From NCBI GenBank assembly GCA_965222615.1, contig CBDCUI010000009.1:352001-416000 (forward strand): DNA of 64,000 nt, read 5' to 3'. This document shows positions 32,263 to 46,292 of this stretch, one piece after another. Position 1 is the first letter of the stretch; every line of letters begins with the position of its first letter. A program made the position numbers and the translations under genes. The notes beneath the pieces were generated by a model. That model ran no database searches and had not been told where the DNA came from. It saw nothing but the letters and a program-made list of their open reading frames with translations. Source of the stretch: Gammaproteobacteria bacterium. Its GTDB lineage: Bacteria > Pseudomonadota > Gammaproteobacteria > UBA4575.

Positions 32263-32264
32263 TA

Positions 32265-32337
32265 GCTTAACATCCGCGCTCAACATAAAAGTACCCGCTA
32301 TGCGGGCACTTTGTTCGGCTGCAATCCCTTGTTACAT
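32265..32337 (-). other. attC site
   Basis: ATGTAAC (overlapping the stop)...AAAGTGCCCGC-ATA-GCGGGTACTTT...GTTAAGC. Confidence 0.8.
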
Positions 32338-32973
32338 TTTATTTGCAACTGCACAATACGAAATAAACGGTGTACCTTCTTTTTCCCTAATATGTGCACC
32401 AGAAAATCCTGCCTCTGCAAGTAAATTAACAACATCATCACATGAATAAGAATTAAAAATATCTTCACTTAGATTGAGCGTACTCATTTGATTATCGTCT
32501 CTAAAGCCAATAACAATTCTTCCGCCAGGTTTAATTACACGAAACATTTCGTTGAAATAATTTTCAGGACTATTCCAAAAATACAGAGTATTTGTTGAGC
32601 ATAATTTATCAAACGCATTGTTCTCAAATGGGAGTGAACCACATTCTCCTTCATACAGGATCACTCTACCTGAAGAAATGTGCTTTTTATTTACTTTCTC
32701 GGCTTGCTTCAACATAACCTGTGAAAAATCAATTGCTCTCACGAGTCCCTTAGTAGTTATGTTTGCCATTTCATGTATCAAATTTCCTGAACCGAAACCA
32801 ATTTCCAAAACATTGTCTTCAGCTTGCAAATCAAGACATTTCTTAACGAAGGCGTTAAGGTCGGCATTGCCACTATTAAATATCTTGGTCATTACATAGC
32901 GACCAATAATTCCTGATGGCTTTCTAGCCTGTAGGGACAAAACTCTAGATGGAATTAATTTCACTATAAACAT
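32332..32973 (-). CDS. Class I SAM-dependent methyltransferase (cassette)
   Basis: VLEIGFGSG, LPF..FD, RVIKPGG. Confidence 0.9.
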   Translation of the reverse strand: MFIVKLIPSRVLSLQARKPSGIIGRYVMTKIFNSGNADLNAFVKKCLDLQAEDNVLEIGFGSGNLIHEMANITTKGLVRAIDFSQVMLKQAEKVNKKHISSGRVILYEGECGSLPFENNAFDKLCSTNTLYFWNSPENYFNEMFRVIKPGGRIVIGFRDDNQMSTLNLSEDIFNSYSCDDVVNLLAEAGFSGAHIREKEGTPFISYCAVANKM

Positions 32974-32987
32974 GGCTCATTTAGTAA

Positions 32988-33059
32988 GCATTACACTCAA
33001 GCTCAGCCGCAGTTAAATTGCGTAATAGGTTAATCGTCCGCTTTAGCATCTTGTTAGGC
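32988..33059 (-). other. attC site, degenerate (R' = GTAATGC)
   Basis: GCCTAACAAGATGCTAAAGCGGAC...GCGGCTGAGCTTGAGT-GTAATGC. Confidence 0.65.
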
Positions 33060-33068
33060 GTCATTTGA

Positions 33069-33297
33069 CTACAGCACAGTCTGCTTGCGCCAAACAACTC
33101 TTGAGCTAGCGTCAGATATATCGATTACATAAACTTCCAATTCCTCTTTGCGAAACTTGTCAGATTCCATTTCATAGTCTATCTTGAATCGCATGCGACA
33201 CATAACAGTCACTCCATATTTATGTACCGTGATCTCCGTGATGTCTAAGGCAAAAAACCGTAGCGAAAACTGCGTTTAGCAGAACATATTGGAGCAT
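33069..33297 (-). pseudogene. Frameshifted cassette gene (secreted-protein-like)
   Basis: RBS AAGGAG then MLQYVLLNAVFATVF; shift in a T6 run; continues ALDITEITVHKYG...QTVL* just before the attC. Confidence 0.5.
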
Positions 33298-33456
33298 TTC
33301 TTTCTCCTTATTCTTAGTGTAGCTCTAGCAATAAATATAGCGGTCAGTTTGACCCACTCGAAGGAGCAATAGCTAGGAATAAGGAGCCTTTAGGCAAAAA
33401 ATTCCGCCACCTCTTTCCGTATTAGGCAGAAATATGTGTTATATCCTCGACAGCCT

Positions 33457-33738
33457 CTAACGAGAACCACCCATGACATAAAAGAAAAGAACTAGAAACG
33501 TTGAAAGGGCGAATCCTGGAATTGCTAGGACCACCCCAATTGAACCTAAGAGTTTACTCCCAGTGCGAAAGGCTATGACACCAAGAACGATTGCTAAGAT
33601 CGACACGAACATGGCAACTGGCTGTTCGGCTTCTGCCAGAATACTCGTAGAGGTAATGAAGCTCGGAAAAAATGAGAGAACCCCACTGAATAATGCAGTA
33701 ATTATGGAACAAATTGCTACAAAAAGACTTCTAGTCAT
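33457..33738 (-). CDS. Small membrane protein (cassette)
   Basis: 93 aa with three hydrophobic segments; follows the attC at 33773. Confidence 0.7.
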   Translation of the reverse strand: MTRSLFVAICSIITALFSGVLSFFPSFITSTSILAEAEQPVAMFVSILAIVLGVIAFRTGSKLLGSIGVVLAIPGFALSTFLVLFFYVMGGSR

Positions 33739-33772
33739 ATAAAAAGCAAAAAACTTATGGGAACAAACAGGG

Positions 33773-33845
33773 CTCTAACATTCTACATCAGCAACAGAGT
33801 GCGTGCGTAACAGACATCTTGTCCGACTGCATGTGCTTGTTAGGT
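33773..33845 (-). other. attC site
   Basis: ACCTAACAAGCACATGCAGTCGGAC...GCTGATGTAGAAT-GTTAGAG. Confidence 0.8.
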
Positions 33846-33904
33846 GTTATTAAACTCATTACATATAAAACTCTAGACCTTGCATAGCACGAAACCATGC
33901 GAGC

Positions 33905-34756
33905 TTATTTCTGCGCTTTTGCGGCTGTTCTAAGTTGAAGTGCAATTTTATTTCCCTTCTTGGCAGGATGTCGAAGTGCGTGGCGGATGAGCCACTTCAT
34001 GCCATTAGATGAGTCTACCAACCACCGCTCGCAAATTTCAAACACCAAATCAGGATGATCTTTTGCTATATCTCCAAGGTGATTTGCAACACTACGACGC
34101 ACATAAAGGTTTCGATCGTCCTTTAAGGTTTCCAATATTGGTAGCACCGGGCTAGGATTCGCAATAAATGATGGAATTCGCATCGCCCATGGTAATCTTG
34201 GACGAGTACCTTCCGAGCAAAGTCTGCGAACATGAGGGTCTGGATCAGATGTCCATTTAAACAATCGCGTTAAAGTGCGTTCTTGTGTTTGAATTAAGAA
34301 TGGGCGTATAGAAAATTCCGCACTGAATCGTTTGGTAAGTTCATACTGTGCTCTCATAGAAATTTCAAACGGATCTTGTCCATTATTTTCCTCTAGGTTA
34401 AGCCCATACTCTGCAACAAAAGAAACATGTGGCAGATAGAAGAACACCTCCAAACCATTGTCTTCCGTATTCGATAATGGTGGTGTCAAAGATGCCAAAA
34501 GGATATCTATGGCAGTTTCATAGTTTTTCGGCAAGAATTGGTGAAGTGTTCTGGCAAGTTTCCGACCACGCTCTATGAGACCAAGTGGTTCTAAGCCATC
34601 CAGTGCATCCTCAGAAAACGACTTTCCATCAAACTCTGTATACACAAGTGAAATATTGCGTGCCAAACAATCAACTGCCTCTTGCCCAAGCAGGTACTTA
34701 AGAGGCTTTCCTTTTTGGATCGATTTCGGCGCATCGGGTATTCGCGGTACAGTCAT
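33905..34756 (-). CDS. DNA alkylation repair (AlkC/AlkD-like HEAT-repeat) protein (cassette)
   Basis: LTKRFSAEFSIRPF, HVRRLCSEGTRPRLPW, YVRRSVANHLGDIAKDHP. Confidence 0.9.
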   Translation of the reverse strand: MTVPRIPDAPKSIQKGKPLKYLLGQEAVDCLARNISLVYTEFDGKSFSEDALDGLEPLGLIERGRKLARTLHQFLPKNYETAIDILLASLTPPLSNTEDNGLEVFFYLPHVSFVAEYGLNLEENNGQDPFEISMRAQYELTKRFSAEFSIRPFLIQTQERTLTRLFKWTSDPDPHVRRLCSEGTRPRLPWAMRIPSFIANPSPVLPILETLKDDRNLYVRRSVANHLGDIAKDHPDLVFEICERWLVDSSNGMKWLIRHALRHPAKKGNKIALQLRTAAKAQK

Positions 34757-34782
34757 TTATACAACTTATTTTCAGAAGATAG

Positions 34783-34872
34783 GGTCAACGGCTAAGCTAA
34801 GCGGCTATTGATTTTAGTGGTGAGAATTCCCCATCTAAATTCATCTTTTCAAGCTCGAACGTTTGGTTAGAA
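34783..34872 (-). other. attC site, degenerate relative of the 42125/43443 type
   Basis: TTCTAACCAAACGTTCGAGC...GGGGAATTCTCACCAC...GCTTAGCTTAGCC-GTTGACC. Confidence 0.7.
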
Positions 34873-34972
34873 GGCGCATTCCATATCCCGTTATTGGCTA
34901 TGTTCAATCTAGGTTCCTACTTTCTCATTTTTTACCATTTTTTCGTTCATGCTTCCGGCAACTTTGGCACGC

Positions 34973-35057
34973 TCTCAACCTACACGCTTAACTTGATCTT
35001 TCCACCCTCGCTTAGCTTCATCGTCTAAGCACATCCGAGCTGAGTAATTTGTTAGGT
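34973..35057 (-). other. attC site, degenerate (R' position uncertain)
   Basis: R'' ACCTAAC matches the cassette start GTTAGGTTT; GCTTAG..CTAAGC inner stem; distal arm eroded. Confidence 0.5.
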
Positions 35058-35294
35058 TTATTTAGTAAATTCATAAAATAGATTAATTAGAAAAATACTC
35101 ATTCCTAAAAACAAAATAAGATAAAAAGCCCAACCAAGATATTTACCTTTAGCTGGGAACATACCATCAGTTGGATTGCTAACTAATGGATAAAACCAAT
35201 GTTGTTTAGCTTCAGATTTTTTATCTGTTAATAAGCGGAAAACAACATATCCAATTATGACAAGACTCAAAATTCCCCAGACATAAATTATCAA
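35058..35294 (-). CDS. Small two-TM protein (cassette)
   Basis: 78 aa ORF bounded by attC sites. Confidence 0.65.
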   Translation of the reverse strand: MIIYVWGILSLVIIGYVVFRLLTDKKSEAKQHWFYPLVSNPTDGMFPAKGKYLGWAFYLILFLGMSIFLINLFYEFTK

Positions 35295-35310
35295 TATTAT
35301 AAATATGCAA

Positions 35311-35406
35311 ACCTAACACCCGCAATAGCGGCATTTGATGCGGACTCGACTTTGCTGCAGCAAAGGAGCAACCGAGTTATATGTCTGTTGCTTAAGCTGG
35401 TTAGAC
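35311..35406 (-). other. attC site
   Basis: GTCTAAC (overlapping the stop)...CTTTGCTGCAGCAAAG...GTTAGGT. Confidence 0.75.
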
Positions 35407-36033
35407 GACATGATACCAACTGTAACCGTGTGGCAAGGTAGGCGGTCCAAATAGAAAATGTAGGACTCGACGGGTACTGCTGTGCATAAGTTTTGTTGAT
35501 GCATGTTCCAATAGAGGTCGCATAACTAATGCGCCGCCTTTCTTCACAGGAATAGAAACTGCTTCAGCTCGCTTACTTTTCTTAGCATTTTGGTGAGAAC
35601 CAGGAACAACCTGCAAATCACCTTCGTTTGCTTCGTCTAGGCTGAGGCGTACCGCAATAAAGTCTTTCAATATTTCATGAGGAGGGCGAACGAATTCCAT
35701 TCCGTCTTTAGTACCCGATGCATCCCACCCATTACCACCTTTAGCTGGAATAACCCGATCTCGGTGGAGTCGAACGGCCCAATTTCTAGACTGCGATTTG
35801 ATGAAGGAGGTGCATTGAACAGCTACGTAATCGTTGAGTAGACCCTTAAGCTGTGAGCAACTGCGTAGTTGGACGGCCGTACGCTTAATTGTCTCATCAT
35901 CTAGCAAGTTTCGTGAGCCCGCGGACTTTTCATTAGCCACGGAGTCCATCAAAACATTGATATCACGGGGATCAAGAACCTGATCCACTACAACGAAGCC
36001 GTCTTGCTCAAACGTTTGTTTCACGTTGATCAC
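35401..36033 (-). CDS. PhyH-like Fe(II)/2OG dioxygenase (cassette)
   Basis: DGFVV, LHRD (HxD), LQVVPGSH, HAS, RRVLH; start must lie after the attC at 36037. Confidence 0.85.
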   Translation of the reverse strand: MINVKQTFEQDGFVVVDQVLDPRDINVLMDSVANEKSAGSRNLLDDETIKRTAVQLRSCSQLKGLLNDYVAVQCTSFIKSQSRNWAVRLHRDRVIPAKGGNGWDASGTKDGMEFVRPPHEILKDFIAVRLSLDEANEGDLQVVPGSHQNAKKSKRAEAVSIPVKKGGALVMRPLLEHASTKLMHSSTRRVLHFLFGPPTLPHGYSWYHVV

Positions 36034-36036
36034 GCC

Positions 36037-36105
36037 ATCTAACGATAAGCTAAGGAGCAGCAAAAGTCAGGCTTTTGGCTGTCACGTTCAAGCACATTGT
36101 TAGCT
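36037..36105 (-). other. attC site
   Basis: AGCTAACAATGTGCTTGAAC...CAGCCAAAAG..CTTTTGCTG...GTTAGAT. Confidence 0.8.
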
Positions 36106-36516
36106 GTTGATACTTTGCTCACGTTCAAGCACCCAACATCTTTGGTTGTTCGTAAACCCAATATTTTCATAGTATTGATTGGCTGTTGGTGCAGCAATTA
36201 AAATCAATTTGCACTTTGCGCCTAGTTGCTTTTGAGTAATAGCCTGTAGCATTTTCCCAATACCACATTTTTGATATTTTTTATCAACTGCAAGGTCAGA
36301 AAGATAACAAGCATAGTGAAAGTCCGTCATGGAGCGCGCGATGCCTATGAGTTTTTCACCGTCCCAAGCTGTGACCATTAGATTGCTATTATTAACCATG
36401 CCTTCCATACACTCTCGATCTTCAATTGGCCTACGCTCTCCCAGAGTAGATTCACGCAACAAACCAATGAATTGATCAGCTGTGATAGGAGTGTTTACTT
36501 TATATTCGATACTCAT
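36100..36516 (-). CDS. GNAT family N-acetyltransferase (cassette)
   Basis: LIGIAR, YLSDLAVDKKYQKCGIG, YYENIGF. Confidence 0.92.
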   Translation of the reverse strand: MSIEYKVNTPITADQFIGLLRESTLGERRPIEDRECMEGMVNNSNLMVTAWDGEKLIGIARSMTDFHYACYLSDLAVDKKYQKCGIGKMLQAITQKQLGAKCKLILIAAPTANQYYENIGFTNNQRCWVLEREQSINS

Positions 36517-36529
36517 GAATTCCTTTGGC

Positions 36530-36549
36530 AGTTAATGGTTTGGTTAGCC
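36530..36549 (-). other. Collapsed attC remnant (20 bp)
   Basis: GGCTAAC-CAAACC-ATTAACT: R'' joined almost directly to a mutated R'. Confidence 0.7.
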
Positions 36550-36553
36550 ACTT

Positions 36554-37141
36554 TCATTCGTCGGAAACTCTAGACATAAGAACAGAACTTAAGGCCGAAC
36601 TGATATCCTGATCAAGTGTTTTGATGCCCTTAATCACGAACTTCCCGCCATTTCGCCACAACGTTTGCGTACTCGCTAGGACCTCTGAAGTCTGGGGATT
36701 CAGGACCCTTACATCAATTAGCACCTCCGTACCTCCCTCAAGAATGGCAGGTAACCCAATAACGAACCGTGGACCTAACTCGTGAACCACAATAAGAAGT
36801 GCTCGTTCCGGCTCGGGTGCCGATTTGGACACCAGACGTAAGAGCTCCTCGTTCGATGGCGGCTGTTTCGCCCAAGACAAACGATGTATTCCTGTGACCG
36901 CAATGCAATCGGCACGATTCAGAAAATCTTGTATTCCTCGTAAGGCAGCGGCTTCACGAAGCTGGGGTTCTTTTTGGTCTGGACGCCATTGTGGGCCCCA
37001 ATAAACCAATGTGGATACCGCCGGCTTACCTGCATGGCACAGTGGCTCCTTCAGCAGTGTGCCGGTCGTTTCAACTTTGGTCGATGCACATCCCGTTAAG
37101 AATGCTAAGGAAATAATTGCGGCAGAAACTAAGGTATGCAT
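36554..37141 (-). CDS. Hypothetical lipoprotein (cassette)
   Basis: Lipobox LTGC; 195 aa. Confidence 0.8.
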   Translation of the reverse strand: MHTLVSAAIISLAFLTGCASTKVETTGTLLKEPLCHAGKPAVSTLVYWGPQWRPDQKEPQLREAAALRGIQDFLNRADCIAVTGIHRLSWAKQPPSNEELLRLVSKSAPEPERALLIVVHELGPRFVIGLPAILEGGTEVLIDVRVLNPQTSEVLASTQTLWRNGGKFVIKGIKTLDQDISSALSSVLMSRVSDE

Positions 37142-37148
37142 TTGTTGT

Positions 37149-37211
37149 GGCTAACGGTTGAACTAACGGACTCGAGTGTAACGAGGCTCCGGATTGAGTG
37201 ACTTGCTAGCA
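37149..37211 (-). other. attC site (R'' AAC>AGC)
   Basis: TGCTAGCAAGTCACTCAATCCGG...CCGTTAGTTCAACC-GTTAGCC. Confidence 0.8.
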
Positions 37212-37217
37212 GTAATT

Positions 37218-37520
37218 CTAATCAAAAATCTTATTCCAGTTATGCAGAAAGTCACTTTTACTCTTAAACGCAGTAACATATGGCCAGTCTGGCGTTGATT
37301 CTTGAGACCATGTTAAGTGAACACAATATAATGGAAACTCTGTATCTTTAGTTGAAAATAAAACATCATCTCGATCATGCCGACGTGCAATAGCACAAAC
37401 TTCTTTGTTGAATAGAACATGGCCTTTACAAACTTCCCTACGTAATTCTTTATTCATGGGATCTGATTCATTTGCATTTAGTAGAGACCAACCTTCTGGC
37501 ATTTCATCTTCTGTAAACAT
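37218..37520 (-). CDS. Hypothetical protein, possibly immunity-like (cassette)
   Basis: ELRREV..GHVL...ARRHDRDDVLF...VHLTW; function not established. Confidence 0.7.
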   Translation of the reverse strand: MFTEDEMPEGWSLLNANESDPMNKELRREVCKGHVLFNKEVCAIARRHDRDDVLFSTKDTEFPLYCVHLTWSQESTPDWPYVTAFKSKSDFLHNWNKIFD

Positions 37521-37529
37521 TTCAATTAC

Positions 37530-37589
37530 TGCTAACGGCTAAATCCAGATGCGCGCTTTCATGCGTCGGGCTGGGACACCTTGTTAGAT
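37530..37589 (-). other. attC site
   Basis: ATCTAACAAGGTGTCCCAGCCCGACGCA...GCGCATCTGGATTTAGCC-GTTAGCA. Confidence 0.8.
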
Positions 37590-38015
37590 TGAATTAAATA
37601 CTTCTTCAATTTTAATGTAGTCCTTTCTTAATACGCTGTTATTTAATAATTCGTTTCTACAGCCTTCAGAAATTAACTTCACTTCTTCTTTAAGTTCAGG
37701 ATATAAGTCATAAAATTGTTTTTCTGCTTTCATTACACTTAAAAGCAAATCTCCTTCATAGCAATCACCACTTACTAAAGGATTCGCCTCGAGAAGCTTG
37801 ATTGCCAAAGGAATTAAATACGGCAAAGATATATTTTGCCCTATCATTATTCTTAGATCCTCTGCATCAAATTTATTTAATGGCTTGTGTCGCAATTTAT
37901 GACAAGTTTCAACAAGTGAGGTCGTATTTTCCGCCTTTCCCCAATCATCATTTTCTAACTCTGTTAAAGTTCTATTAAAGTCGTGCTTTTTAAGCTTTTT
38001 GAATTTCTTGGGCAT
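37584..38015 (-). CDS. CDI-type immunity protein (CdiI_3-like) (cassette)
   Basis: TLTELENDDWG...LRHKPL..F..EDLRIMIGQNI.L.YLIPLA...NPL..GD.YEGDLL pattern. Confidence 0.75.
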   Translation of the reverse strand: MPKKFKKLKKHDFNRTLTELENDDWGKAENTTSLVETCHKLRHKPLNKFDAEDLRIMIGQNISLPYLIPLAIKLLEANPLVSGDCYEGDLLLSVMKAEKQFYDLYPELKEEVKLISEGCRNELLNNSVLRKDYIKIEEVFNSI

Positions 38016-38019
38016 ATCA

Positions 38020-38100
38020 ATCTAGTGCCCGCCGTAACCGGCGCAGTTGTAGTGAGCGCAGCGAACGAAAATTGCGTCCGAGTTGACGGCATTGTTAGCC
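38020..38100 (-). other. attC site with mutated core (R' = ACTAGAT)
   Basis: GGCTAACAATGCCGTCAACTCGGACGCAA...TGCGCCGGTTACGGCGGGC-ACTAGAT. Confidence 0.85.
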
Positions 38101-38110
38101 GAGTAATATT

Positions 38111-38965
38111 TCATACCCGCTGTGCCACAACAGCAAACTCCGTACCTTGAGAATCAAACGGATGCCCCGCTACATCTCCCAATACTGACTCAACTGCCAA
38201 CCCGTGTTCCATAAGCTCTTTCTCTAAGCTTTCAGGTGAGTAGTACTTAAGCCAGTTATACACCTCACGTTTTCCTCTCTCTTCTACGATGGTGTACTTA
38301 TCCAGACTAACTACTTCCGTCTCGTATTTGAAGCTGGTAAGAAAACCGTAATATGATGAAGATGACCAAAATCCATTAAGCAAATTCTTTTCGAACAATA
38401 TCACCTCCTTCTTCTGCTCAAAAGCCAACTGAGAGTAAACATCAAAGACCAAACGCCCTTTGCTCGAAAGTGAATTAGAAAACTTGCGGAACATCACTGA
38501 CCGCTGCGGGGCACTCAGCGCACAAATATCACACATTATCATGATGATAAGGTCATACGTGCCTTCTGGTTCAAACTCTAGATAGTTCGCCTGGTGAAAT
38601 GAGATTTGTTGCCCTAATGATTCTGCCTGGCTATTTGCATATGTGACCGAAATTGGAGAAAAATCAACGCCCGTTACCTTTGCTCCGCAGGAAGCGATTC
38701 GAGAAGCATATAATCCTGGACCGCAGCCGTAATCTATGACCCTACTCTCCTTCGAAAGTCCGAAATGACCAACCATCCAATCAACTGACTCATTTATGAA
38801 AGTTTCTCGCCGCGATGAAACATCAATCTCTGGATTAAGGTGAAACGCCAACATTTGTTTTGATGTATGTGGATCAGTCCACAACGCTTTTGCGGTATAA
38901 ATCGAGAAAGGTTCTGGCTTCGCTACGATGTAAGCTAACTCGGTGTACAGATCAAATGGCTCCAT
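38111..38965 (-). CDS. Class I SAM-dependent methyltransferase (cassette)
   Basis: VIDYGCGPGLY, VTGVDFS. Confidence 0.9.
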   Translation of the reverse strand: MEPFDLYTELAYIVAKPEPFSIYTAKALWTDPHTSKQMLAFHLNPEIDVSSRRETFINESVDWMVGHFGLSKESRVIDYGCGPGLYASRIASCGAKVTGVDFSPISVTYANSQAESLGQQISFHQANYLEFEPEGTYDLIIMIMCDICALSAPQRSVMFRKFSNSLSSKGRLVFDVYSQLAFEQKKEVILFEKNLLNGFWSSSSYYGFLTSFKYETEVVSLDKYTIVEERGKREVYNWLKYYSPESLEKELMEHGLAVESVLGDVAGHPFDSQGTEFAVVAQRV

Positions 38966-38996
38966 TACTAAATCATTCTCTGAAATTTGTATTCAC

Positions 38997-39074
38997 GGCT
39001 AATGTTGGAGATAACCGGCATTTGACGGCGCGAGCGTCGCGCGGTCAAGTGTCCGGCTGATTGACTTGTTAGGC
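38997..39074 (-). other. attC site with mutated core (R' = ATTAGCC)
   Basis: GCCTAACAAGTCAATCAGCCGGACACTTGAC...GTCAAATGCCGGTTATCTCCAAC-ATTAGCC. Confidence 0.85.
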
Positions 39075-39081
39075 AATAGCA

Positions 39082-39579
39082 TCACTTGCCTCGTGGATCC
39101 GCAACTGTTCCCTTTAGTAAGATGATAAATATCATTGCATGTGTAACCAACAGAGCTGGTACGACAATTGCCGGGATGAAGAACGTGGCTCCAAGGTGGC
39201 CGTCTTCCGTGAACCGTAAACCTTGTGTTACGGCATTTATGAGGTCCAAGGTACCCTCGATGTTGAATATCCACACTATTGGGATAGAGGTGCGCCAATT
39301 GCCCCGCAACGAAAAAATCGCGACAAACGCGAGTAGTGCAGCCAGCAAATCTCCATACGCAGCTGGATTAGCGAAACGGGGATCGAGGGGTTCAGATGTG
39401 ACACCAGGTATTAAGAATGCGAGCCCGATAAAACGGAAGCAATGTAGAAAAATTAAAGGGATCAATGCTTGGGCAATATTGAGTCGCATTAAAGCAGGCC
39501 AAATGAACCACGCTGCTATTAGCCCATACGCGATAAGAGCGAGTAGGATGCAAACGGGTAGTATTAAGTCAATTGGCAT
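39082..39579 (-). CDS. Hypothetical multi-pass membrane protein (cassette)
   Basis: HCFRFIGLAFL, AYGDL, WIFNIEG.LD; true start ATG at 39579, because the upstream ORF extension is attC sequence. Confidence 0.8.
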   Translation of the reverse strand: MPIDLILPVCILLALIAYGLIAAWFIWPALMRLNIAQALIPLIFLHCFRFIGLAFLIPGVTSEPLDPRFANPAAYGDLLAALLAFVAIFSLRGNWRTSIPIVWIFNIEGTLDLINAVTQGLRFTEDGHLGATFFIPAIVVPALLVTHAMIFIILLKGTVADPRGK

Positions 39580-39609
39580 ATCTAAATGGTACGGCCAAGG
39601 GTTGCTATT

Positions 39610-39683
39610 GCCTAATGGTTGAGCTAAGGGCCGCGCGTAAGCGCAGTCCCGTGCGAAACACATACTTGAGCGACTCGTTGGCA
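39610..39683 (-). other. attC site with mutated core (R' = ATTAGGC)
   Basis: Paralogue of the 41475-41549 attC, with GTT>ATT. Confidence 0.85.
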
Positions 39684-39684
39684 A

Positions 39685-40191
39685 TCATTTAATTTCTCTT
39701 ACTTCAATTGGTTTTATTACATTAACCATCTCATCTGCTAATACTTCTAATTTGACTTCAGTGTGAGAAAACTCGTAACTTGATAAAGAAATTAATAGAT
39801 TTTCTTTTATTTTATATAGCTCATCCACTTTGCCTCCTACGTAGTCAGTAAATAATACATGGGGCATTTCATTTAACCATGATGAATAAGCTTTAGGGTG
39901 CTTTTGGAACCACGATAGCGTCAACTTGGTGTGATGAATTAATGAAAGAGCAATTAGATCAGAAACTTCTATGCCAATTGCTCCGTCTTTGAAACGCCAA
40001 ATATTGCCCAAGGTGTTAATTAGCGGGACCACCTCCTCTGTTGTTCCGGATTGGAGCGCATTAGCGATTTCATGATAATTATTTAGTAACCATTCAAAGT
40101 TTGCTTCAATCAATAGTGGTCCCTGTGCGCTAACTAAGGGTGAAAATAGCACTAAGAGAGAAATTAAAATTGATGTGCGTAAACTTTTCAC
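39685..40191 (-). CDS. Hypothetical secreted protein (cassette)
   Basis: Signal peptide ending VSA-Q; start GTG at 40191 or TTG at 40200. Confidence 0.7.
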   Translation of the reverse strand: MKSLRTSILISLLVLFSPLVSAQGPLLIEANFEWLLNNYHEIANALQSGTTEEVVPLINTLGNIWRFKDGAIGIEVSDLIALSLIHHTKLTLSWFQKHPKAYSSWLNEMPHVLFTDYVGGKVDELYKIKENLLISLSSYEFSHTEVKLEVLADEMVNVIKPIEVREIK

Positions 40192-40195
40192 TGAT

Positions 40196-40264
40196 TGCAA
40201 ATGATTGAGCTAACAGGCGCTGAGTGCATCCGTGCGAAGCGTCCAGTTGAGTGATTTGTTATAA
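40196..40264 (-). other. attC site with mutated core (R' = ATTTGCA)
   Basis: TTATAACAAATCACTCAACTGGACGCT...AGCGCCTGTTAGCTCAATC-ATTTGCAATC; the next cassette's R'' predicts GTTGGCAATC. Confidence 0.75.
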
Positions 40265-40684
40265 GGCTTTTTCAATGATTGTATAAACCCCTATATTTGG
40301 AAACGTAAGCGTAAATTCATGTGTTTTGTTACTGAACGAATGTGTTGCGACCAACAAATAACTCTGACATGGAGGTTGATCTTGGCATAAAGGAGAAGAG
40401 AATGAATAATAATCATTATTTAATTCTTTAATGGGCACTTCGGATAGTATTTTACTATCAGAGACGCCGTCATAATGGTATGTAATCCACTGCACAAATA
40501 ATTTGCTTGTTACATGTTCAGACCCATATCTTTTGGTAATAAAACGTAAATATCCATCTTTTTTACCAAGCTTCCAATAACCTCCAGAATACACATGACT
40601 AAGACTAGTCTCGTAGCTGTTCTCTATGTCTGCTTCGCAGATGTATGACAAGAACAGCAATGAAAAAACAAATATGATTTTCAT
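40259..40684 (-). CDS. Hypothetical secreted protein (cassette)
   Basis: MKIIFVFSLLFLSYICEA signal; SGGYW..G..R...YGSEH; start corrected to lie after the attC. Confidence 0.75.
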   Translation of the reverse strand: MKIIFVFSLLFLSYICEADIENSYETSLSHVYSGGYWKLGKKDGYLRFITKRYGSEHVTSKLFVQWITYHYDGVSDSKILSEVPIKELNNDYYSFSSPLCQDQPPCQSYLLVATHSFSNKTHEFTLTFPNIGVYTIIEKAL

Positions 40685-40688
40685 AACC

Positions 40689-40745
40689 TTATAACGACAA
40701 AGCCAAGCGGAGGCGAAGCCATCTGACTTGGCCGCATTGTTATGC
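40689..40745 (-). other. attC site (57 bp)
   Basis: GCATAACAATGCGGCCAAGTCAGATGGCTTCGCCTCCGCTTGGCTTTGTC-GTTATAA. Confidence 0.88.
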
Positions 40746-40755
40746 ACCAAAGATC

Positions 40756-41412
40756 TCATTTATTTTCACTCTTTAACTCCACGGCTTTTTTGGTAATCAA
40801 CGTATACTCATCATTTGACTCACTGAATTTCGTCTTTTCAACAACACTGAAGCCAGTCTGTTCAAGCGCCAGTTCTATCTGCTGGTTTGATAGCAGATTA
40901 ATCAATGGCAAGAATCCAAGTCTCCCGGCTGATCGGATAAGTTTGCCAATGACTATATTTTTCTCGCCTAGGCATGCGGTCTCTAAAATAAACAAACCAC
41001 CTGGTTTCAGGATGTCATATATACGTCTAAAAGCCTCATCGATATCTTCAAAAAAATGAAGCACATAAAAAGCCATTACCACGTCAAAGCTACCAGAATC
41101 AAAACGCTCATCAAAAACAGTGGTTTGTACAAATTCAACGTTTTTAATTTCACGCTCAACCTTTCTCCTCTCCGCAATGGCCAGTAATTTGTTGGAGATA
41201 TCAATACCTGTTACGTGTTTTACATTATTTGCAAGATCGCCGCATTGAGTGCCGGTACCACAACCAATATCGAGCACATAATCCTCCGATGACAAGTAGG
41301 ATTTTAATTTTTCGATCTTCTTCTGGTAAGCCGCAACGTCAGAAATCGGCGATGCAGCATATTTTGAAGCGATCAGATTCCAGAATTTCTCAGGTGATGT
41401 TCGAAACAGCAT
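40756..41412 (-). CDS. Class I SAM-dependent methyltransferase (cassette)
   Basis: VLDIGCGTG, GIDIS, FDVV, LKPGG. Confidence 0.92.
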   Translation of the reverse strand: MLFRTSPEKFWNLIASKYAASPISDVAAYQKKIEKLKSYLSSEDYVLDIGCGTGTQCGDLANNVKHVTGIDISNKLLAIAERRKVEREIKNVEFVQTTVFDERFDSGSFDVVMAFYVLHFFEDIDEAFRRIYDILKPGGLFILETACLGEKNIVIGKLIRSAGRLGFLPLINLLSNQQIELALEQTGFSVVEKTKFSESNDEYTLITKKAVELKSENK

Positions 41413-41474
41413 GTCCCTATCCTATTTGTAGATAAAGGAAGCTGACCACTTTGCTTGGTCCTTTGATTCTTTAT

Positions 41475-41549
41475 GCATAACGGTTGAGCTAAGGGGCCGC
41501 GTGTAAACGCGGTCCCGTGCGAAGCACGTACTTGAGCGACTTGTTATGT
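41475..41549 (-). other. attC site
   Basis: ACATAACAAGTCGCTCAAG...CCGCGT..ACGCGG..CTTAGCTCAACC-GTTATGC. Confidence 0.9.
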
Positions 41550-42110
41550 CCATTTACTAAATATCATGTTCCAATTATTTAAATACTGAGAATAATCTCT
41601 GTTTTTAGGCGCCACTTTATTGTCGATAACTAATTCATCCGTTGCTTTTTTCCTTAGCCCTCTCGTTTCCCAACATTTGCCATTTTTTGAAACCCAAAGA
41701 TATATATTTGGCGATTTATTTTCTTTGTGAACTGTATTTAACCGCTTAATAAGTTCTTGAGGCGTTAAAATTACATACTGCATATTTTTTTGGTTAAATG
41801 TATGCATCACAAAGATCCAATACTCGGCATTAGAATTAGATATTTTTTCTTTATTTAAAGTCCACCAACCACATGAAATTAAATTAGAATGATATTCAGA
41901 TCTAATATGTGTCACCAAGAAATCTTTAGAAAATTTTACTTGAATAGATGAGGTTTTTTTATTTAATTGATCAGTAACTAGAATATCAACTCCAGTATCT
42001 TTTGATGGTACCCATATATTTACTTTTCCCCCATTCGGATCAACCAAGTTTTGTTCAATGTGCGATCCCACTAAATATTCACCTGCATGAATAGTAAACA
42101 AAGGTTGCAT
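41544..42110 (-). CDS. PD-(D/E)XK restriction-endonuclease-like protein (cassette)
   Basis: AGEYLV...DTGVDILV...IQVKFS catalytic-type motif. Confidence 0.7.
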   Translation of the reverse strand: MQPLFTIHAGEYLVGSHIEQNLVDPNGGKVNIWVPSKDTGVDILVTDQLNKKTSSIQVKFSKDFLVTHIRSEYHSNLISCGWWTLNKEKISNSNAEYWIFVMHTFNQKNMQYVILTPQELIKRLNTVHKENKSPNIYLWVSKNGKCWETRGLRKKATDELVIDNKVAPKNRDYSQYLNNWNMIFSKWT

Positions 42111-42124
42111 TCATCACCCTTTTG

Positions 42125-42211
42125 ACATAACGTGGAGCTGAACGACTATTCATTCAAGTGGGGAGGATTCCCCGCTTGAATGAATCAGTTAGTTCGAGCG
42201 TCTTGTTAGGT
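42125..42211 (-). other. attC site
   Basis: ACCTAAC...ATTCATTCAAGCGGGGA-ATCC-TCCCCACTTGAATGAAT...GTTATGT. Confidence 0.9.
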
Positions 42212-42568
42212 CCCTTTTCTATCACGAAAAACATAATGCATTGCCGCCTCATAAAGAAACCAAAGTACGGCTATAGAAGTTGCTATTTTGTTCATTCGAA
42301 CAATTTCGGCGCCACAATCGCCGCTGTAATTCCAGTGCCCGAAGTACGACACCAAAAGATATATGCCTGGAATCACGCAAATAAAAAAGCTTGGTTTTCT
42401 TAAGTAACTAATTACTATCGCGCCCATTAAAATCAAGATCCCAACCCTTATTATTGGATCCGTAATATCCAAAAACCCCGGGGCAAAATAGCCACTGAAG
42501 CAGGCATAAGCAGGGCAGCAAGAACTCCAAATACATAATGAAGCTAGAACATTCTTCGTATTCGTCAC
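42206..42568 (-). CDS. Hypothetical membrane protein (cassette)
   Basis: 120 aa, hydrophobic; stop codon lies within R''. Confidence 0.7.
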   Translation of the reverse strand: MTNTKNVLASLCIWSSCCPAYACFSGYFAPGFLDITDPIIRVGILILMGAIVISYLRKPSFFICVIPGIYLLVSYFGHWNYSGDCGAEIVRMNKIATSIAVLWFLYEAAMHYVFRDRKGT

Positions 42569-42573
42569 GAGAG

Positions 42574-42632
42574 ACCTAACGTTTCACTAAGGCGCGCCGC
42601 TTTTTGGCGTCGCATTGAGTGGCTGGTTATGT
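42574..42632 (-). other. attC site (59 bp)
   Basis: ACATAACCAGCCACTCAATGCGACGCCAAAAAGCGGCGCGCCTTAGTGAAAC-GTTAGGT. Confidence 0.88.
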
Positions 42633-42997
42633 AGTGATGTTCTATTCACAAATTCAACTAAAATATTACTATCTATTAAAAAAACACCATATTGTGATGG
42701 GTCATATCGATCTCGCTTCTCAATAGTATTATAAGGTTCAAATAAATCTACACTACTAGCATTATCAATATAAAATCCCATTTTAAATCTATTAGCATAC
42801 TCGCAACTTTTTAGATTAACTACACTTCCAGCTTTCAAGTATACTTGCTCAGAAACAAGATCTTTCTTTAGCTTTGCTGGATAGGGTTTGCTGCACATGA
42901 AATCAAGTTCTCCTGAACCATAATACCATCCGATAATCCCTCCTAAAGGCAGACAAATAATTGCAGATACAGCTACACTAGAAAATATCTTCTTCAT
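42587..42997 (-). CDS. Hypothetical N-terminally anchored protein (cassette); ORF runs into its attC
   Basis: 136 aa; the last ~14 codons are attC sequence. Confidence 0.7.
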   Translation of the reverse strand: MKKIFSSVAVSAIICLPLGGIIGWYYGSGELDFMCSKPYPAKLKKDLVSEQVYLKAGSVVNLKSCEYANRFKMGFYIDNASSVDLFEPYNTIEKRDRYDPSQYGVFLIDSNILVEFVNRTSLHNQPLNATPKSGAP

Positions 42998-43014
42998 ATA
43001 TATCCATGAAAGCT

Positions 43015-43076
43015 ACATAACGCCCCGCATCAGCGGCGCGGCCTTGGCCGCGTCCGTCTGCATGCGCTTGTTAGGT
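43015..43076 (-). other. attC site (62 bp)
   Basis: ACCTAACAAGCGCATGCAGACGGACGCGGCCAAGGCCGCGCCGCTGATGCGGGGC-GTTATGT. Confidence 0.92.
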
Positions 43077-43436
43077 GCCGCCGCCAATTATCCCCCAAAG
43101 CCACTGACTGACAATTGTAACGGCTACACCTACTACAAATGCTGTAACCAATGACCAAATCCTTACGCCCTTCTCATAAGTACGTTGCTCTTGTCTGCCC
43201 TCTAAATTCTCTGATCTTCTCTCTGCGTTTCGAGATTGCTCTTCAAGTTCTTTAATTCTGTTTCTGATCCTGATTCGATAACCCCCATCGATATCTCGAT
43301 TTCCTAACATTTCGTCGACTTGACGTAGCTGATCTAATGAGAAAGCTTCAAATTCGGCGTCTGCCTCTGGTTGGCTCTTAAACGTCCTCTGCGTTGTACG
43401 AATGATCTCGTTCTTTTCGTTTTCAGAAATTCGCAT
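43071..43436 (-). CDS. Hypothetical coiled-coil protein with C-terminal TM segment (cassette)
   Basis: 121 aa; charged helix followed by a single TM segment. Confidence 0.7.
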   Translation of the reverse strand: MRISENEKNEIIRTTQRTFKSQPEADAEFEAFSLDQLRQVDEMLGNRDIDGGYRIRIRNRIKELEEQSRNAERRSENLEGRQEQRTYEKGVRIWSLVTAFVVGVAVTIVSQWLWGIIGGGT

Positions 43437-43442
43437 AAGAGC

Positions 43443-43532
43443 ACCTAACGTGGAGCTGAACGACGACTATTCATTCAAGTGGGGAGGATTCCCCGCTTGA
43501 ATGAATCAGTTGGTTCGAGCGTCTTGTTAGGC
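43443..43532 (-). other. attC site
   Basis: Nearly identical to 42125-42211; GCCTAAC...GTTAGGT. Confidence 0.9.
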
Positions 43533-43625
43533 GGCGTGGTGGCGTTGCCGGTTGATATAACTTTATTCTCATTAGGGTGCCCCTTGTTTTGTTCTCGCAC
43601 TTGCGATCAGTTTTGCGTTACGACA

Positions 43626-43644
43626 GCACAACGATTTGTTAGTC
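43626..43644 (-). other. Collapsed attC remnant (19 bp)
   Basis: GACTAAC (overlapping the stop)-AAATC-GTTGTGC. Confidence 0.5.
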
Positions 43645-44214
43645 GTTATCACTACTAAAGCTAAACTGTGACATGTCACCGATCCAAAATAGTTTCGCTA
43701 CACCATCAGACCAGATAAAATCAACTAGGATATTCCTTTCTCCATTATCGAGTATGAATATCGGTTCCTCAATGTCATAAGGAATGAGCCCCCAGTAGAT
43801 TTGTTTTTCGCGTTCATTAAGATATCGGACTTCGAATTGCGCTTTACTCAAGATGGATCGAATTGTCTCGATCAACTCAAGTTTCTCTTCATTCGACTGA
43901 AAGAGTGCACCATTGAACTCTTGGAACTGGCCGTTATCCAAGGGAACAACTGCCGTTGCGGGCGTTAGGTCGAGCACTGCTATGTTTGGGGCGAGCTTAA
44001 TCATTTGCCATAATGCAGGGCCACAAATAATTTTACTAGCGAGATATTCTGTCTTTACTTCACCATTTGATCTAAAAAGACTTTCGACTGCGGTTAGTGC
44101 AGCATCGTTTGCTTCAATCGTAGCTGGCTTATACACGACTTCTCTACCCACAGCACTGCTTAGACAGAGAGCCGCCAGAATAAATGCGGTGACTTGTGAA
44201 ATCTGATAATTCAT
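43639..44214 (-). CDS. Hypothetical secreted protein (cassette)
   Basis: Signal peptide; CGPALW, YWGLIPYDIEEPIF. Confidence 0.75.
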   Translation of the reverse strand: MNYQISQVTAFILAALCLSSAVGREVVYKPATIEANDAALTAVESLFRSNGEVKTEYLASKIICGPALWQMIKLAPNIAVLDLTPATAVVPLDNGQFQEFNGALFQSNEEKLELIETIRSILSKAQFEVRYLNEREKQIYWGLIPYDIEEPIFILDNGERNILVDFIWSDGVAKLFWIGDMSQFSFSSDND

Positions 44215-44222
44215 ATAATGGC

Positions 44223-44294
44223 AGCTAACGCCGCGCTCTGCGGCAAATTTGGAGCGCAGCGGAAAATTTGTCCGACAGCAGCGCCTTGTTAGAG
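44223..44294 (-). other. attC site of the first cassette
   Basis: CTCTAACAAGGCGCTGCTGTCGGACAAATTT...AAATTTGCCGCAGAGCGCGGC-GTTAGCT. Confidence 0.93.
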
Positions 44295-44304
44295 GGCTTT
44301 TGGC

Positions 44305-45156: not shown

Positions 45157-45168
45157 AAGCTACGTGTA

Positions 45169-45195
45169 GCCCTCTAACTATAAGTAGACGTCCGA
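45169..45195 (-). other. attI site (crossover G|TT at 45178/45177)
   Basis: G|TTAGAGGGC exactly complements the first cassette's R'' GCCCTCTAAC; imperfect L box GTCTACT just upstream; no attC hairpin; next to the intI 5' end. Confidence 0.85.
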
Positions 45196-45308
45196 AAAGT
45201 CCATTATGAATGGAATTTTTCGGGGCTTATTAAAATTAATACTTTTTAAATTCATGCTCTTATCATAAAATATGGGGATTATTTAACGAAAATATTCACT
45301 AGATTTCA

Positions 45309-46292
45309 ATGCCCCAACCTCGCCTTTTAGATCAAGTCCGTAAAGCGATGCGTGTACGGCATTATAGTATTCGCACAGAGGAATCCTATATCTCATGGAT
45401 TAAACGGTACATTCTGTTTCACGATAAACAACATCCAAAGAATTTAGGTAAAGATGAAATCACTCAGTTTTTATCTCATCTTGCATCGGATCGAAACGTA
45501 GCAGCCTCCACTCAAAATCAAGCACTCTCTGCCCTACTCTTTCTTTATAAAGAAGTGCTTTCTATCGACCTCCCTTGGTTGGGTGATGTAGTCCGTGCAA
45601 AACGGCCCAGTCGTTTGCCTGTGGTATTAACGCGTCAAGATACCAAACGGCTGTTAGGTGAACTTAACGACACAAATTGGCTCATTGCTAATTTGTTATA
45701 TGGTTCTGGTCTACGACTGATGGAAGCTATTCGCTTGAGGGTCAAAGATGTAGATTTTGACTATGAGCAAATCATTGTGCGTTCCGGAAAAGGTTTTAAA
45801 GATCGTACTACTGTTTTGCCCAACTCCATTGCTAAACATTTGCAAAAACATTTAGCAAAAATTAAAAATCTGCATCAACGTGATCTTGAGGAAGGTTTTG
45901 GTAGTGTGTATTTGCCCTTTGCAATCGAACGTAAATATCCTAATGCCAATAAGGAATGGGGTTGGCAGTATGTATTCCCCTCTTCTAAACGTTCGGTAGA
46001 CCCACAAAGCGGTGTTATTCGTCGACATCATGTTTCTGAAAAAAACCTACAACGTGCGATTAAGCAAGCAACACGAAACTTAGGCATAGTGAAGCCTGTC
46101 AGCACACATACCTTGCGACATTGTTTTGCTACACACTTACTCGAAGACGGCTACGATATTCGCACCATACAAGAGTTACTTGGTCACAAGGACCTAAAAA
46201 CGACTATGATCTACACTCATGTCATGAAAAAAGGCGCGCATGGAGTACGCAGTCCGATTGACCTGCCTGAAATCGAAACCGTCGAGGTTTAA
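45309..46292 (+). CDS. intI: Integron integrase
   Basis: Tyrosine recombinase residues (GLRLME, HTLRH, LLGH, TMIYTH) plus the IntI-specific insertion LPFAIERKYP...WQYVFPS...RRHH. Confidence 0.97.
   Translation: MPQPRLLDQVRKAMRVRHYSIRTEESYISWIKRYILFHDKQHPKNLGKDEITQFLSHLASDRNVAASTQNQALSALLFLYKEVLSIDLPWLGDVVRAKRPSRLPVVLTRQDTKRLLGELNDTNWLIANLLYGSGLRLMEAIRLRVKDVDFDYEQIIVRSGKGFKDRTTVLPNSIAKHLQKHLAKIKNLHQRDLEEGFGSVYLPFAIERKYPNANKEWGWQYVFPSSKRSVDPQSGVIRRHHVSEKNLQRAIKQATRNLGIVKPVSTHTLRHCFATHLLEDGYDIRTIQELLGHKDLKTTMIYTHVMKKGAHGVRSPIDLPEIETVEV

What the first reader, a model, noticed from the sequence alone, without database searches (positions are those of the whole stretch)
36530..40264. Recurrent G>A loss at the exact attC crossover base locks five cassettes together
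Seen: the R' GTT reads ATT at 40202, 39616, 39003 and 36536, and ACT at 38026. The original GTT is inferable from each downstream cassette's own R'' (e.g. ATTAGGCAATAGCA versus TGCTATTGCCTAAC) and from the intact paralogue at 41475. Four are consecutive. All are bottom-strand C>T changes in a CpG context. Established: IntI exchanges strands at this AAC on the bottom strand. Inference: cassettes from ~37537 to 40688 now behave as one ~3.2-kb five-gene unit between intact attC sites. Candidate causes are survivor bias (only locked cassettes persist), deamination or mis-repair targeted to the cleavage position, or an integrase that tolerates ATT. Any of these would be an interesting cassette-fixation mechanism.
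Basis: partly seen in the sequence, partly recalled or inferred. Interest (0 to 1): 0.78.

Follow-up and report, generated by a model that had tools for sequence, protein, structure and literature searches.

The report
Integron cassette sites mutated at crossover base
In a chromosomal integron, five cassette recombination sites, four of them neighbours, carry a single-base change at the exact point of strand exchange, which probably welds several gene cassettes into one block; this looks like ordinary mutation plus retention, not a new mechanism.

Summary
The window holds a chromosomal integron: an intact intI (45309-46292, +) and about 20 cassettes running leftwards, so the + strand is the attC bottom strand. 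At 40202, 39616, 39003, 36536 and 38026 it reads T where attC sites have the crossover C. Contigs of three runs (two samples) agree.

The T is derived: the nearest paralogues of three sites carry C. It is enriched: 5 of 20 sites here, against 2 of 148 near related integrases (p=3e-4), 3 of 46 in relatives (p=0.05), and 0 of 54 in metagenome attC sites.

Sites H-K are otherwise well preserved (31-34 bits with a model built only from other genomes). The seven sites nearest attI are pristine. Sites further out are decayed.

Published IntI1 work shows a 1,000-10,000-fold loss when this base differs between partners. It did not test the G.T wobble arrangement found here.

Best reading (0.5): independent transitions cripple exchange, and cassettes that cannot leave are retained. 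Block 37536-40694 would then move only as a whole.

Not supported: methyl-CpG deamination (no C5 methylase gene, CpG ratio 0.94). 36536 lies in a deleted attC remnant that is dead regardless. Locking itself is untested.

The parts
45309..46292 (+). intI, integron integrase, intact (327 aa)
   Evidence: TIGR02249 at 490.5 bits (cut-off 265), no stops. Aligns over its full length to VchIntIA 2A3V, E 1.2e-96, with the recombinase motifs identical.
45157..45308 (-). attI region; crossover between 45177 and 45178 (canonical AAC on the + strand)
   Evidence: CCTCTAAC at 45171-45178 is the complement of the first cassette's R'' GTTAGAGG. Inferred from sequence; no assay.
44223..44294 (-). attC A, canonical AAC/GTT
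   Evidence: R3 35.5 bits
43443..43532 (-). attC B, canonical; near-identical to E
   Evidence: R3 37.0 bits
43015..43076 (-). attC C, canonical
   Evidence: R3 37.8 bits
42574..42632 (-). attC D, canonical
   Evidence: R3 34.5 bits
42125..42211 (-). attC E, canonical
   Evidence: R3 32.0 bits
41475..41549 (-). attC F, canonical; closest paralogue of I, with C at 41481
   Evidence: R3 50.5 bits; alignment with I
40689..40745 (-). attC G, canonical (C at 40695); upper intact boundary of the block
   Evidence: R3 30.1 bits
40196..40264 (-). attC H, crossover base T at 40202 (AAT)
   Evidence: R3 33.7 bits. Its paralogue at C9:476773-476841 has AAC.
39610..39683 (-). attC I, crossover base T at 39616 (AAT)
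   Evidence: R3 31.7 bits. Paralogue F has C. X3 contig is identical.
38997..39074 (-). attC J, crossover base T at 39003 (AAT); the T.G pair forms in the predicted fold
   Evidence: R3 31.4 bits; fold; X3 contig identical. No paralogue was found.
38020..38100 (-). attC K, reads AGT at 38024-38026 (two changes)
   Evidence: R3 30.9 bits. Copies 92% identical in two other genomes read CTAAC (L012/L130, L013).
37530..37589 (-). attC L, canonical triplets (C at 37536); lower intact boundary of the block
   Evidence: R3 22.5 bits
37536..40694 (-). Inferred fused block: five cassettes (three ORFs with no Pfam family, a SAM methyltransferase, a CdiI_3 immunity protein), 3,159 bp
   Evidence: Bounded by intact sites G and L, with four T sites inside. 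Pfam annotation. That it behaves as a unit is inference.
37149..37211 (-). attC M, R'' reads GCT instead of GTT on the + strand
   Evidence: R3 28.6 bits
36530..36549 (-). attC N remnant: AAT (T at 36536), then 6 bases, then GTTAGCC; interior deleted
   Evidence: R2 9.3 bits, E 7.2; not listed by R3; sequence
36037..36105 (-). attC O, canonical triplets, weak
   Evidence: R3 16.1 bits
35310..35406 (-). attC O2, probable; hand-called, AAC/GTT
   Evidence: Sequence only; found by no model
34978..35057 (-). attC S, probable; its R'' GTTAGGT complements O2's ACCTAAC
   Evidence: R2 9.4 bits, E 7; sequence
34783..34872 (-). attC P, canonical triplets
   Evidence: R3 16.2 bits
33773..33845 (-). attC Q, canonical triplets; base after AAC is A
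   Evidence: R3 20.0 bits
32988..33059 (-). attC R, R' reads TAC
   Evidence: R3 11.5 bits, E 1.7

Best explanation
This is a sedentary chromosomal integron with an apparently working integrase. Five attC sites have each independently suffered a C>T transition on the bottom strand (G>A in the top-strand GTT) at the one base that is carried across during strand exchange.

In the folded bottom strand the change leaves a G.T wobble, so hairpin shape and integrase binding are probably kept. After cleavage, however, the 5' T must dock on a G in the partner. By analogy with IntI1, that should strongly lower exchange.

A cassette bounded by such a site cannot be excised alone. It stays while cassettes with good sites come and go, so the older part of the array becomes enriched for crippled sites (survivor bias, possibly helped by selection for keeping the genes). 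The result is a de facto fused block, 37536-40694, that could still leave only as a whole through the intact sites G and L.

Shown: the base changes, their derived state, their enrichment, and the intact integrase. Inferred: loss of recombination, and retention as the cause of the enrichment.
For: - The T is real and agrees in contigs of 3 runs.
- It is derived. The closest paralogue of I (site F), of H (C9:476773) and of K (L012/L130, L013) all read C. H and I each have a nearer C-bearing relative than each other, so their T's arose separately.
- It is enriched. 5/20 here against 2/148, 3/46, and 0/54 among the metagenome loci. Of 81 matches to the left-arm motif that allowed C or T, 21 of 39 C matches are attC sites and 0 of 42 T matches are.
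- That rarity elsewhere, at a position where a wobble would preserve pairing, argues that T is harmful to cassette mobility.
- IntI1 assays: G1/C3' changed in one partner gives a 10^3-10^4-fold loss. A one-sided non-complementary cleavage triplet gives 6e-6 against 2.2e-3. Second- and third-position changes in one partner are nearly harmless. This is therefore the one base where a single transition should matter most (PMC2811028). PMC2727003 states that the lack of G/C at this position in attI L boxes prevents exchange.
- Pattern along the array: 0 of 7 attI-proximal sites have any triplet lesion, against 7 of 13 distal ones (p=0.022).
- H-K score 31-34 bits, close to the proximal mean of 36.8 and well above the distal mean of 15.4 (Mann-Whitney p=0.003). 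They are otherwise intact sites with one critical hit.
- intI is intact.
- One X2 contig carries the junction expected from exchange between the canonical sites C and A. This is weak: one contig, 23 bases on one side.
Against: - No recombination data exist for this integrase or for the R'-only (G.T wobble) configuration. The published mutants changed both strands of the stem.
- G1>A1 sites are still cleaved in vitro.
- Enrichment over the closest comparison set, the AT-rich relatives, is marginal (p=0.049; 0.078 with model-detected sites only).
- Other CpGs in the same sites differ between paralogues about as often, so plain decay could supply all the changes.
- More distal sites L, O, P and Q keep C although they look older.
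- The count of 20 includes three hand-called sites.
- No conspecific genome with this array was available to date the changes. In 40 relatives only short matches were found, and the same-genus genome has no attC hit.
Confidence: 0.5

Rival explanations
1. Plain neutral decay. attC sites are not maintained by the host once inserted. In a 39% G+C genome, G:C>A:T transitions erode the G+C-rich sites. The cluster of four is chance, and no retention effect is needed.
For: - Genome G+C is 0.39.
- Transitions are 8/12, 8/16 and 5/12 of the paralogue differences, and other CpGs differ at 4/10, 2/5 and 2-3/10.
- In relatives, T at the crossover occurs in 3/46 and the mirror change (R'' G>A) in 2/46.
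- attC model score falls steadily with distance from attI (rho -0.89).
- Other lesions are present too: M (GCT), R (TAC), and the deletion in N.
Against: - H-K are otherwise as good as the proximal sites, so they are not generally decayed.
- A run of at least 4 has p=0.017.
- 5 hits at C against 0/20 at the mirror G of R'' gives p=0.024.
- GC skew is negative on the + strand across the window. If that marks the + strand as the lagging strand, replication-linked C deamination would favour the opposite strand.
- The crossover C changes more often than the other five conserved positions (p=0.003).
Confidence: 0.2
2. The T sites still work. The G.T wobble keeps the R box paired, this integrase cleaves AA|T and ligates it, and nothing is locked. 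T is a tolerated variant that is copied faithfully because the bottom strand templates the product.
For: - The predicted fold of J keeps the T.G pair.
- G1>A1 substrates are cleaved in vitro by IntI1.
- H-K keep high structural scores, as expected if they are still under selection.
- T sites with good scores occur in a relative (L118, 30.3 bits).
- C>T outnumbers the pairing-breaking mirror change in this array, 5 to 0.
Against: - T is rare among attC sites elsewhere: 2/148 and 0/54.
- No T match of the same left-arm motif in the metagenome sample is an attC.
- A mismatch at this base in one partner costs 10^3-10^4-fold, and a one-sided mismatch in the triplet costs about 370-fold.
- The residues said to touch the cleavage site look like those of IntI1 and VchIntIA (residue roles taken), so there is no sign of altered specificity.
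Confidence: 0.15
3. Mutagenesis aimed at the cleavage point. Either repeated abortive cleavage by IntI followed by error-prone repair, or deamination of the frayed C at the stem-spacer junction of the extruded hairpin.
For: - The changes fall exactly at the cleaved position.
- Further changes lie within 4 bases of it in H (C, G, G becoming T, G, A), in K (A>G beside it), in N, and in the G036 copy of the K type, which reads CTGAT.
Against: - Sites A-G, presumably the most active, are untouched.
- Arrays next to intact related integrases show only 2/148.
- There is no cytosine-5 methylase, CpG is not depleted, and four UDG genes are present.
- Neighbouring changes are equally expected from relaxed constraint after a first inactivating hit.
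Confidence: 0.07
4. Sequencing or assembly error.
For: None found.
Against: Contigs of three runs from two samples are identical at the places they cover, and no variant rows fall at the five positions.
Confidence: 0.01

Closest known systems
Engineered first-base (G1/C3') mutants of attC and attI1 (Frumerie et al. 2010, PMC2811028; Results part 1 and Discussion read)
   Same: The same base, at the cleavage point AA|C of the bottom strand. A mismatch between partners at this base blocks exchange, and ATT substrates are still cleaved.
   Different: The engineered attC sites had both R' and R'' changed, so the stem stayed Watson-Crick. Recombination returned only with a partner carrying the same change. 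Here only R' changed and R'' keeps G, so the invading T meets a G in every partner. The 'identical first nucleotide' rule therefore does not predict a private ATT-with-ATT compatibility. These sites are natural, not designed. I did not see that paper's Table 4 values.
Fused gene cassettes of class 1 integrons (review PMC8876359, passages read)
   Same: Two or more ORFs become one mobilisable unit because the attC between them no longer works. The unit can still move by the last attC.
   Different: [quoted passage not shown] Here the attC is complete and the lesion is one base. Only remnant N (36530-36549) matches the deletion type.
Decaying cassette arrays and clusters of attC sites lacking an integrase (CALIN; concept recalled from the IntegronFinder paper PMC4889954, of which I saw only the search listing)
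   Same: attC sites erode when not used. This genome also has small integrase-less attC clusters with lesions (C9:476 kb and 612-614 kb).
   Different: Here the integrase is intact, the proximal sites are pristine, and the affected sites are otherwise well preserved.

Membership tests
Integron (sedentary chromosomal type) | Integron-type tyrosine recombinase gene | tested here: met
   TIGR02249 at 490.5 bits against a cut-off of 265, open frame without stops. Full-length match to 2A3V.
Integron (sedentary chromosomal type) | Array of cassettes each ending in an attC, all in one orientation, beside intI | tested here: met
   16 R3 matches at E<=0.15 plus site R at E 1.7, all on the + strand between 32988 and 44294. 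ORFs lie on the - strand.
Integron (sedentary chromosomal type) | attI with the GTT crossover next to intI | tested here: inconclusive
   CCTCTAAC at 45171-45178 complements the first cassette's R''. There is no functional test, and no integrase-binding repeats were examined.
Integron (sedentary chromosomal type) | Chromosomal and specific to the lineage, not on a mobile element | tested here: inconclusive
   It lies in a 1.1-Mb contig. The same-genus genome has no attC match, and the array is not shared with 40 relatives. Flanks were not examined for transposons.
Functional attC site (sites H, I, J, K) | Imperfect inverted repeat with R and L boxes and an extrahelical base, at the 3' end of a cassette ORF | tested here: met
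   R3, built from other genomes only, gives 30.9-33.7 bits. The positions directly follow ORF stops.
Functional attC site (sites H, I, J, K) | Conserved AAC (bottom strand) / GTT (top strand) at R', with cleavage between A and C | tested here: not met
   They read AAT, AAT, AAT and AGT. AAC is present in 146/148 reference sites.
Functional attC site (sites H, I, J, K) | Recombined by the integrase | not testable with these tools
Contigs cannot show rare junctions.
Fused cassettes (deletion type) | [quoted passage not shown] | tested here: not met
   H-K are full length (69-81 nt). Only N (20 nt left) fits.
Orthogonal ATT recombination sites (as engineered by Frumerie et al.) | Complementary change in R'' and a partner site with the same first base | tested here: not met
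   R'' remains GTT in H, I, J, K and N, and attI reads AAC. The one AAT/ATT site in the genome (C9:613723-613779) lacks its right arm and scores 16.5 bits with R2 only.

The most novel reading that the evidence does not exclude
A one-base 'latch'. In sedentary integrons, a transition at the crossover base that preserves the hairpin through a G.T wobble is a recurrent, selectable and reversible way to turn mobile cassettes into a fixed multi-gene module. The module can still move as a whole through its outer intact sites. The neighbouring T sites in this array would then be the product of selection to keep these genes, not of decay.
Probability: 0.15. Interest if true: 0.6.

Novelty: new variant of a known kind. 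Interest (0 to 1): 0.4.

Why it matters
Integron biology treats the GTT/AAC triplet as invariant, and describes cassette fixation as loss of the attC. This array gives natural examples of otherwise intact attC sites hit at the single base that laboratory work identified as the only strict requirement for exchange. It also offers an untested substrate type: R' changed, R'' unchanged, leaving a G.T wobble.

If these sites are dead, they show how cheaply a chromosomal integron can freeze part of its array. The steady fall of attC quality away from attI would then give a rough residence clock for cassettes. If the sites are alive, the rule that the first base must match needs a qualification.

Either answer is reachable with standard assays. 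The finding does not point to a new mechanism.

Tried and rejected
- **Crude attC finders.** Too noisy. They were replaced by covariance models: R1 (8 seeds), R2 (15 window sites) and R3 (150 sites from other genomes). RNAalifold on the MAFFT alignment gave no structure, so I supplied the structure by hand for R1.
- **Private compatibility among ATT sites.** I considered that the T sites might still recombine with each other, following the 'identical first nucleotide' rule. I rejected this because R'' is still G in all of them, so the invading T meets G in any partner.
- **Block imported from an integron with an ATT-type attI.** Rejected for the same reason.
- **New start codon or promoter made by the change.** The start codons I read for the cassettes downstream of sites H and I lie further downstream, and the -10 resemblance is poor (sequence). 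Not pursued.
- **Methyl-CpG deamination.** No PF00145 hit, CpG ratio 0.94, UDG present.
- **Orthologous arrays for dating.** None found. The same-genus genome shares only a 394-base gene match. The homologue in G002 of the ORF at 39082-39684 has no adjacent attC.
- **The two AAT sites in other arrays (L072:1463, L024:4051).** They share arm motifs but have unrelated flanks, so there is no evidence that a T-bearing attC lineage spreads.
- **Absence of junction contigs inside the block.** This is no evidence, because contigs drop rare variants and 49 loose ends and 84 pieces were not shown.
- **Literature.** Searches found no paper describing natural crossover-base (ATT) attC variants. The library lacks most subscription journals. 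Supplements were closed, and Figure S1 of PMC2727003, an attC alignment that I could not see, may hold such variants.

Full report
**What is there.** The window lies at G000:C9:352001-416000. An intact integron integrase gene sits at 45309-46292 on the + strand. It scores 490.5 bits on TIGR02249 against a cut-off of 265, has no stops, and aligns over its full length to VchIntIA 2A3V at E 1.2e-96. The R, K, H-x-x-R, H and Y motifs are identical in that alignment; which residues are catalytic is recalled knowledge. Cassette ORFs run leftwards on the - strand. The + strand is therefore the attC bottom strand, read as R' (RYYYAAC) ... L' ... L'' ... R'' (GTTRRRY).

I inventoried the sites with three covariance models. 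R1 was built from 8 window sites and R2 from 15 window sites. R3 was built from 150 sites found next to related integrases in other genomes, so it is independent of this window. R3 finds 16 sites at E<=0.15 plus site R at E 1.7, all on the + strand. Three more are hand-called: the remnant N (also R2 9.3 bits), S (also R2 9.4 bits) and O2. In order from attI the 20 sites are A, B, C, D, E, F, G, H, I, J, K, L, M, N, O, O2, S, P, Q, R.

**The observation.** The + strand reads T instead of the crossover C at 40202 (H), 39616 (I), 39003 (J) and 36536 (N). It reads AGT at 38024-38026 (K). H, I, J and K are consecutive, and R3 scores them as good attC sites at 30.9-33.7 bits. N is a remnant: six bases separate its AAT from the GTTAGCC that serves as R'' of the next cassette. 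It is dead regardless of that base. Other triplet lesions are GCT in the R'' of M and TAC in the R' of R.

Contigs of three public runs agree with the window. X1 and X2 come from one sample, and X3 from a second sample of the same study. X1 and X2 cover the whole block with no differences. The listed X3 pieces cover 39003 and 39616. No variant row falls on the five places. The best holder may be the sample the assembly came from, so this rules out an assembly slip but is not independent biology.

**Derived and independent.**
- Site I's closest relative is F (C at 41481).
- Site H's closest relative is a solitary attC at C9:476773-476841 (AAC).
- K-type sites that are 92% identical in two genomes of other families read CTAAC.
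- H and I each have a nearer C-bearing relative than each other, so their T's arose separately.
- J has no known paralogue. Its own R'' G implies an original C.

Because each crossover base stays with its own attC body during exchange (established mechanism), recombination cannot copy a T from one site to another.

**Enrichment.**

| Set | Sites with T at the crossover |
|---|---|
| This array | 5 of 20 |
| 148 unique full sites within 10 kb of 80 related integrase genes (R2, which tolerates T) | 2 |
| 46 unique sites in genomes of the same family or class | 3 |
| 54 R3 hits in 80 metagenome loci fetched with a left-arm motif allowing C or T | 0 |

In the first reference set, 160 of 162 hits lay on the expected strand. 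In the relatives, the mirror change (R'' G>A) occurs in 2 of 46. In the metagenome set, 21 of the 39 C matches to the motif are attC sites and none of the 42 T matches is.

Fisher tests give 2.6e-4 against the integrase-linked set and 0.049 against relatives. Within the array, the crossover C against the other five conserved positions (3/100) gives 0.003, and against the mirror G (0/20) gives 0.024. A run of at least 4 has p=0.017. Related genomes are not independent and three sites are hand-called, so these figures are indicative.

**Pattern along the array.** None of the 7 proximal sites has a triplet lesion, against 7 of the 13 distal ones (p=0.022). R3 score falls with rank from attI (Spearman rho -0.89). 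The means are 36.8 bits for A-G, 31.9 for H-K and 15.4 for L-R. H-K are thus nearly as good as the newest sites, apart from the one base, and clearly better than the older sites (p=0.003). That argues against H-K simply being old and worn.

**What the change should do.** I read the Results (part 1) and Discussion of Frumerie et al. 2010 (PMC2811028).
- Cleavage falls between A and C of the bottom-strand AAC.
- Changing G1/C3' in only one partner lowers attC x attI1 recombination 10^3-10^4-fold.
- The same change in both partners restores recombination.
- Second- and third-position changes in one partner are almost harmless.
- G1>A1 substrates are still cleaved.
- A triplet made non-complementary on one side dropped from 2.2e-3 to 6e-6.

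This base is therefore where one transition should hurt most. However, those mutants changed R'' as well. Here R'' keeps G, so the hairpin has a G.T wobble, and the freed T would dock on G in attI or in any attC, whether or not that partner also has T. I therefore reject the idea of a private compatibility among the T sites. The activity of this configuration is untested.

The rarity of T elsewhere, at a position where a wobble would keep pairing, is indirect evidence that T harms mobility. Bouvier et al. 2009 (PMC2727003, passages) state two relevant things. The G after AAC is conserved in most attC sites yet hardly matters. The absence of G/C at this position in attI L boxes prevents exchange.

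**Causes.**
- *Methyl-CpG deamination* has no support. There is no cytosine-5 methylase, the CpG ratio is 0.94 and four UDG genes are present. The CpG is simply the attC consensus.
- *A targeted process* is not needed. Other CpGs of the same sites differ between paralogues at 4/10, 2/5 and 2-3/10.
- *Replication bias* is an unlikely source. GC skew is negative on the + strand. If that marks it as the lagging strand, replication-linked C deamination would favour the other strand.
- *A functional link among the block's genes* is not evident. They are three ORFs with no Pfam family, a SAM methyltransferase and a CdiI_3 immunity protein.

**Verdict.** The best reading, at confidence 0.5, is independent transitions that cripple exchange and are retained because cassettes that cannot leave stay. 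This makes 37536-40694 a de facto five-cassette unit.

The rivals are:
- plain decay with a chance cluster (0.2);
- sites still active through the wobble (0.15);
- cleavage-linked mutagenesis (0.07);
- sequencing or assembly error (0.01).

One X2 contig joins 43017 to 44226, as expected from exchange between canonical sites C and A. This is a weak hint that the proximal part is active.

**Comparison with what is known.** Known cassette fusions arise by attC deletion (PMC8876359, passages). The lesion here is a point change in a complete site. Four literature searches found no description of natural crossover-base variants. The library is incomplete and supplements were closed.

I rate this a new variant of a known kind, of moderate interest. 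It is readily testable, but the explanation is ordinary.

Noticed in passing
window 32988-44294: attC quality (bits with the independent model R3) declines steadily with distance from attI. Means are 36.8 for A-G, 31.9 for H-K and 15.4 for L-R; Spearman rho is -0.89. This could serve as a rough residence clock for cassettes.
   Followed up: partly
window 43017-44226: One contig of run X2 joins these two places, skipping 1208 bases, with 7 shared bases at the joint and 23 bases on one side. This is the junction expected from exchange between attC C and attC A, removing two cassettes. It rests on a single contig.
   Followed up: no
window 42125-42211 and 43443-43532: attC E and attC B are near-identical (3 substitutions and a 3-base indel) although they follow different genes.
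   Followed up: no
G000:C9:476007-476841 and C9:612426-613779: Two small attC clusters lie far from intI. The first holds an H-type site with AAC and a neighbour whose R'' reads TTT. The second holds two canonical sites and a truncated one reading AAT and ATT.
   Followed up: partly
L014 (G036:C1:~1366256-1366322), L012/L130 (G033), L013 (G025): The K-type attC occurs at 85-92% identity in genomes of other families. The G036 copy reads CTGAT, so it too has T at the crossover base plus a neighbouring change.
   Followed up: partly
L118:1501-1566 (G020, same family): An attC with the same left arm as F and I reads AAT in a related genome. Its neighbour 480 bases away reads AAC.
   Followed up: no
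window 36530-36549: This is an attC remnant: the interior of the hairpin is gone, which fuses the cassettes carrying ORFs 36554-37141 and 36100-36516.
   Followed up: partly
window 30000-46500, runs X2 and X3: Most loose ends of X2 and X3 contigs begin or end at GATC. This looks like junctions of a proximity-ligation library and not like rearrangements.
   Followed up: no
window 37584-38015: One cassette encodes a CdiI_3 contact-dependent-inhibition immunity protein (Pfam E 5e-31). None of the ten neighbouring cassette ORFs scanned with Pfam matched a toxin family.
   Followed up: no
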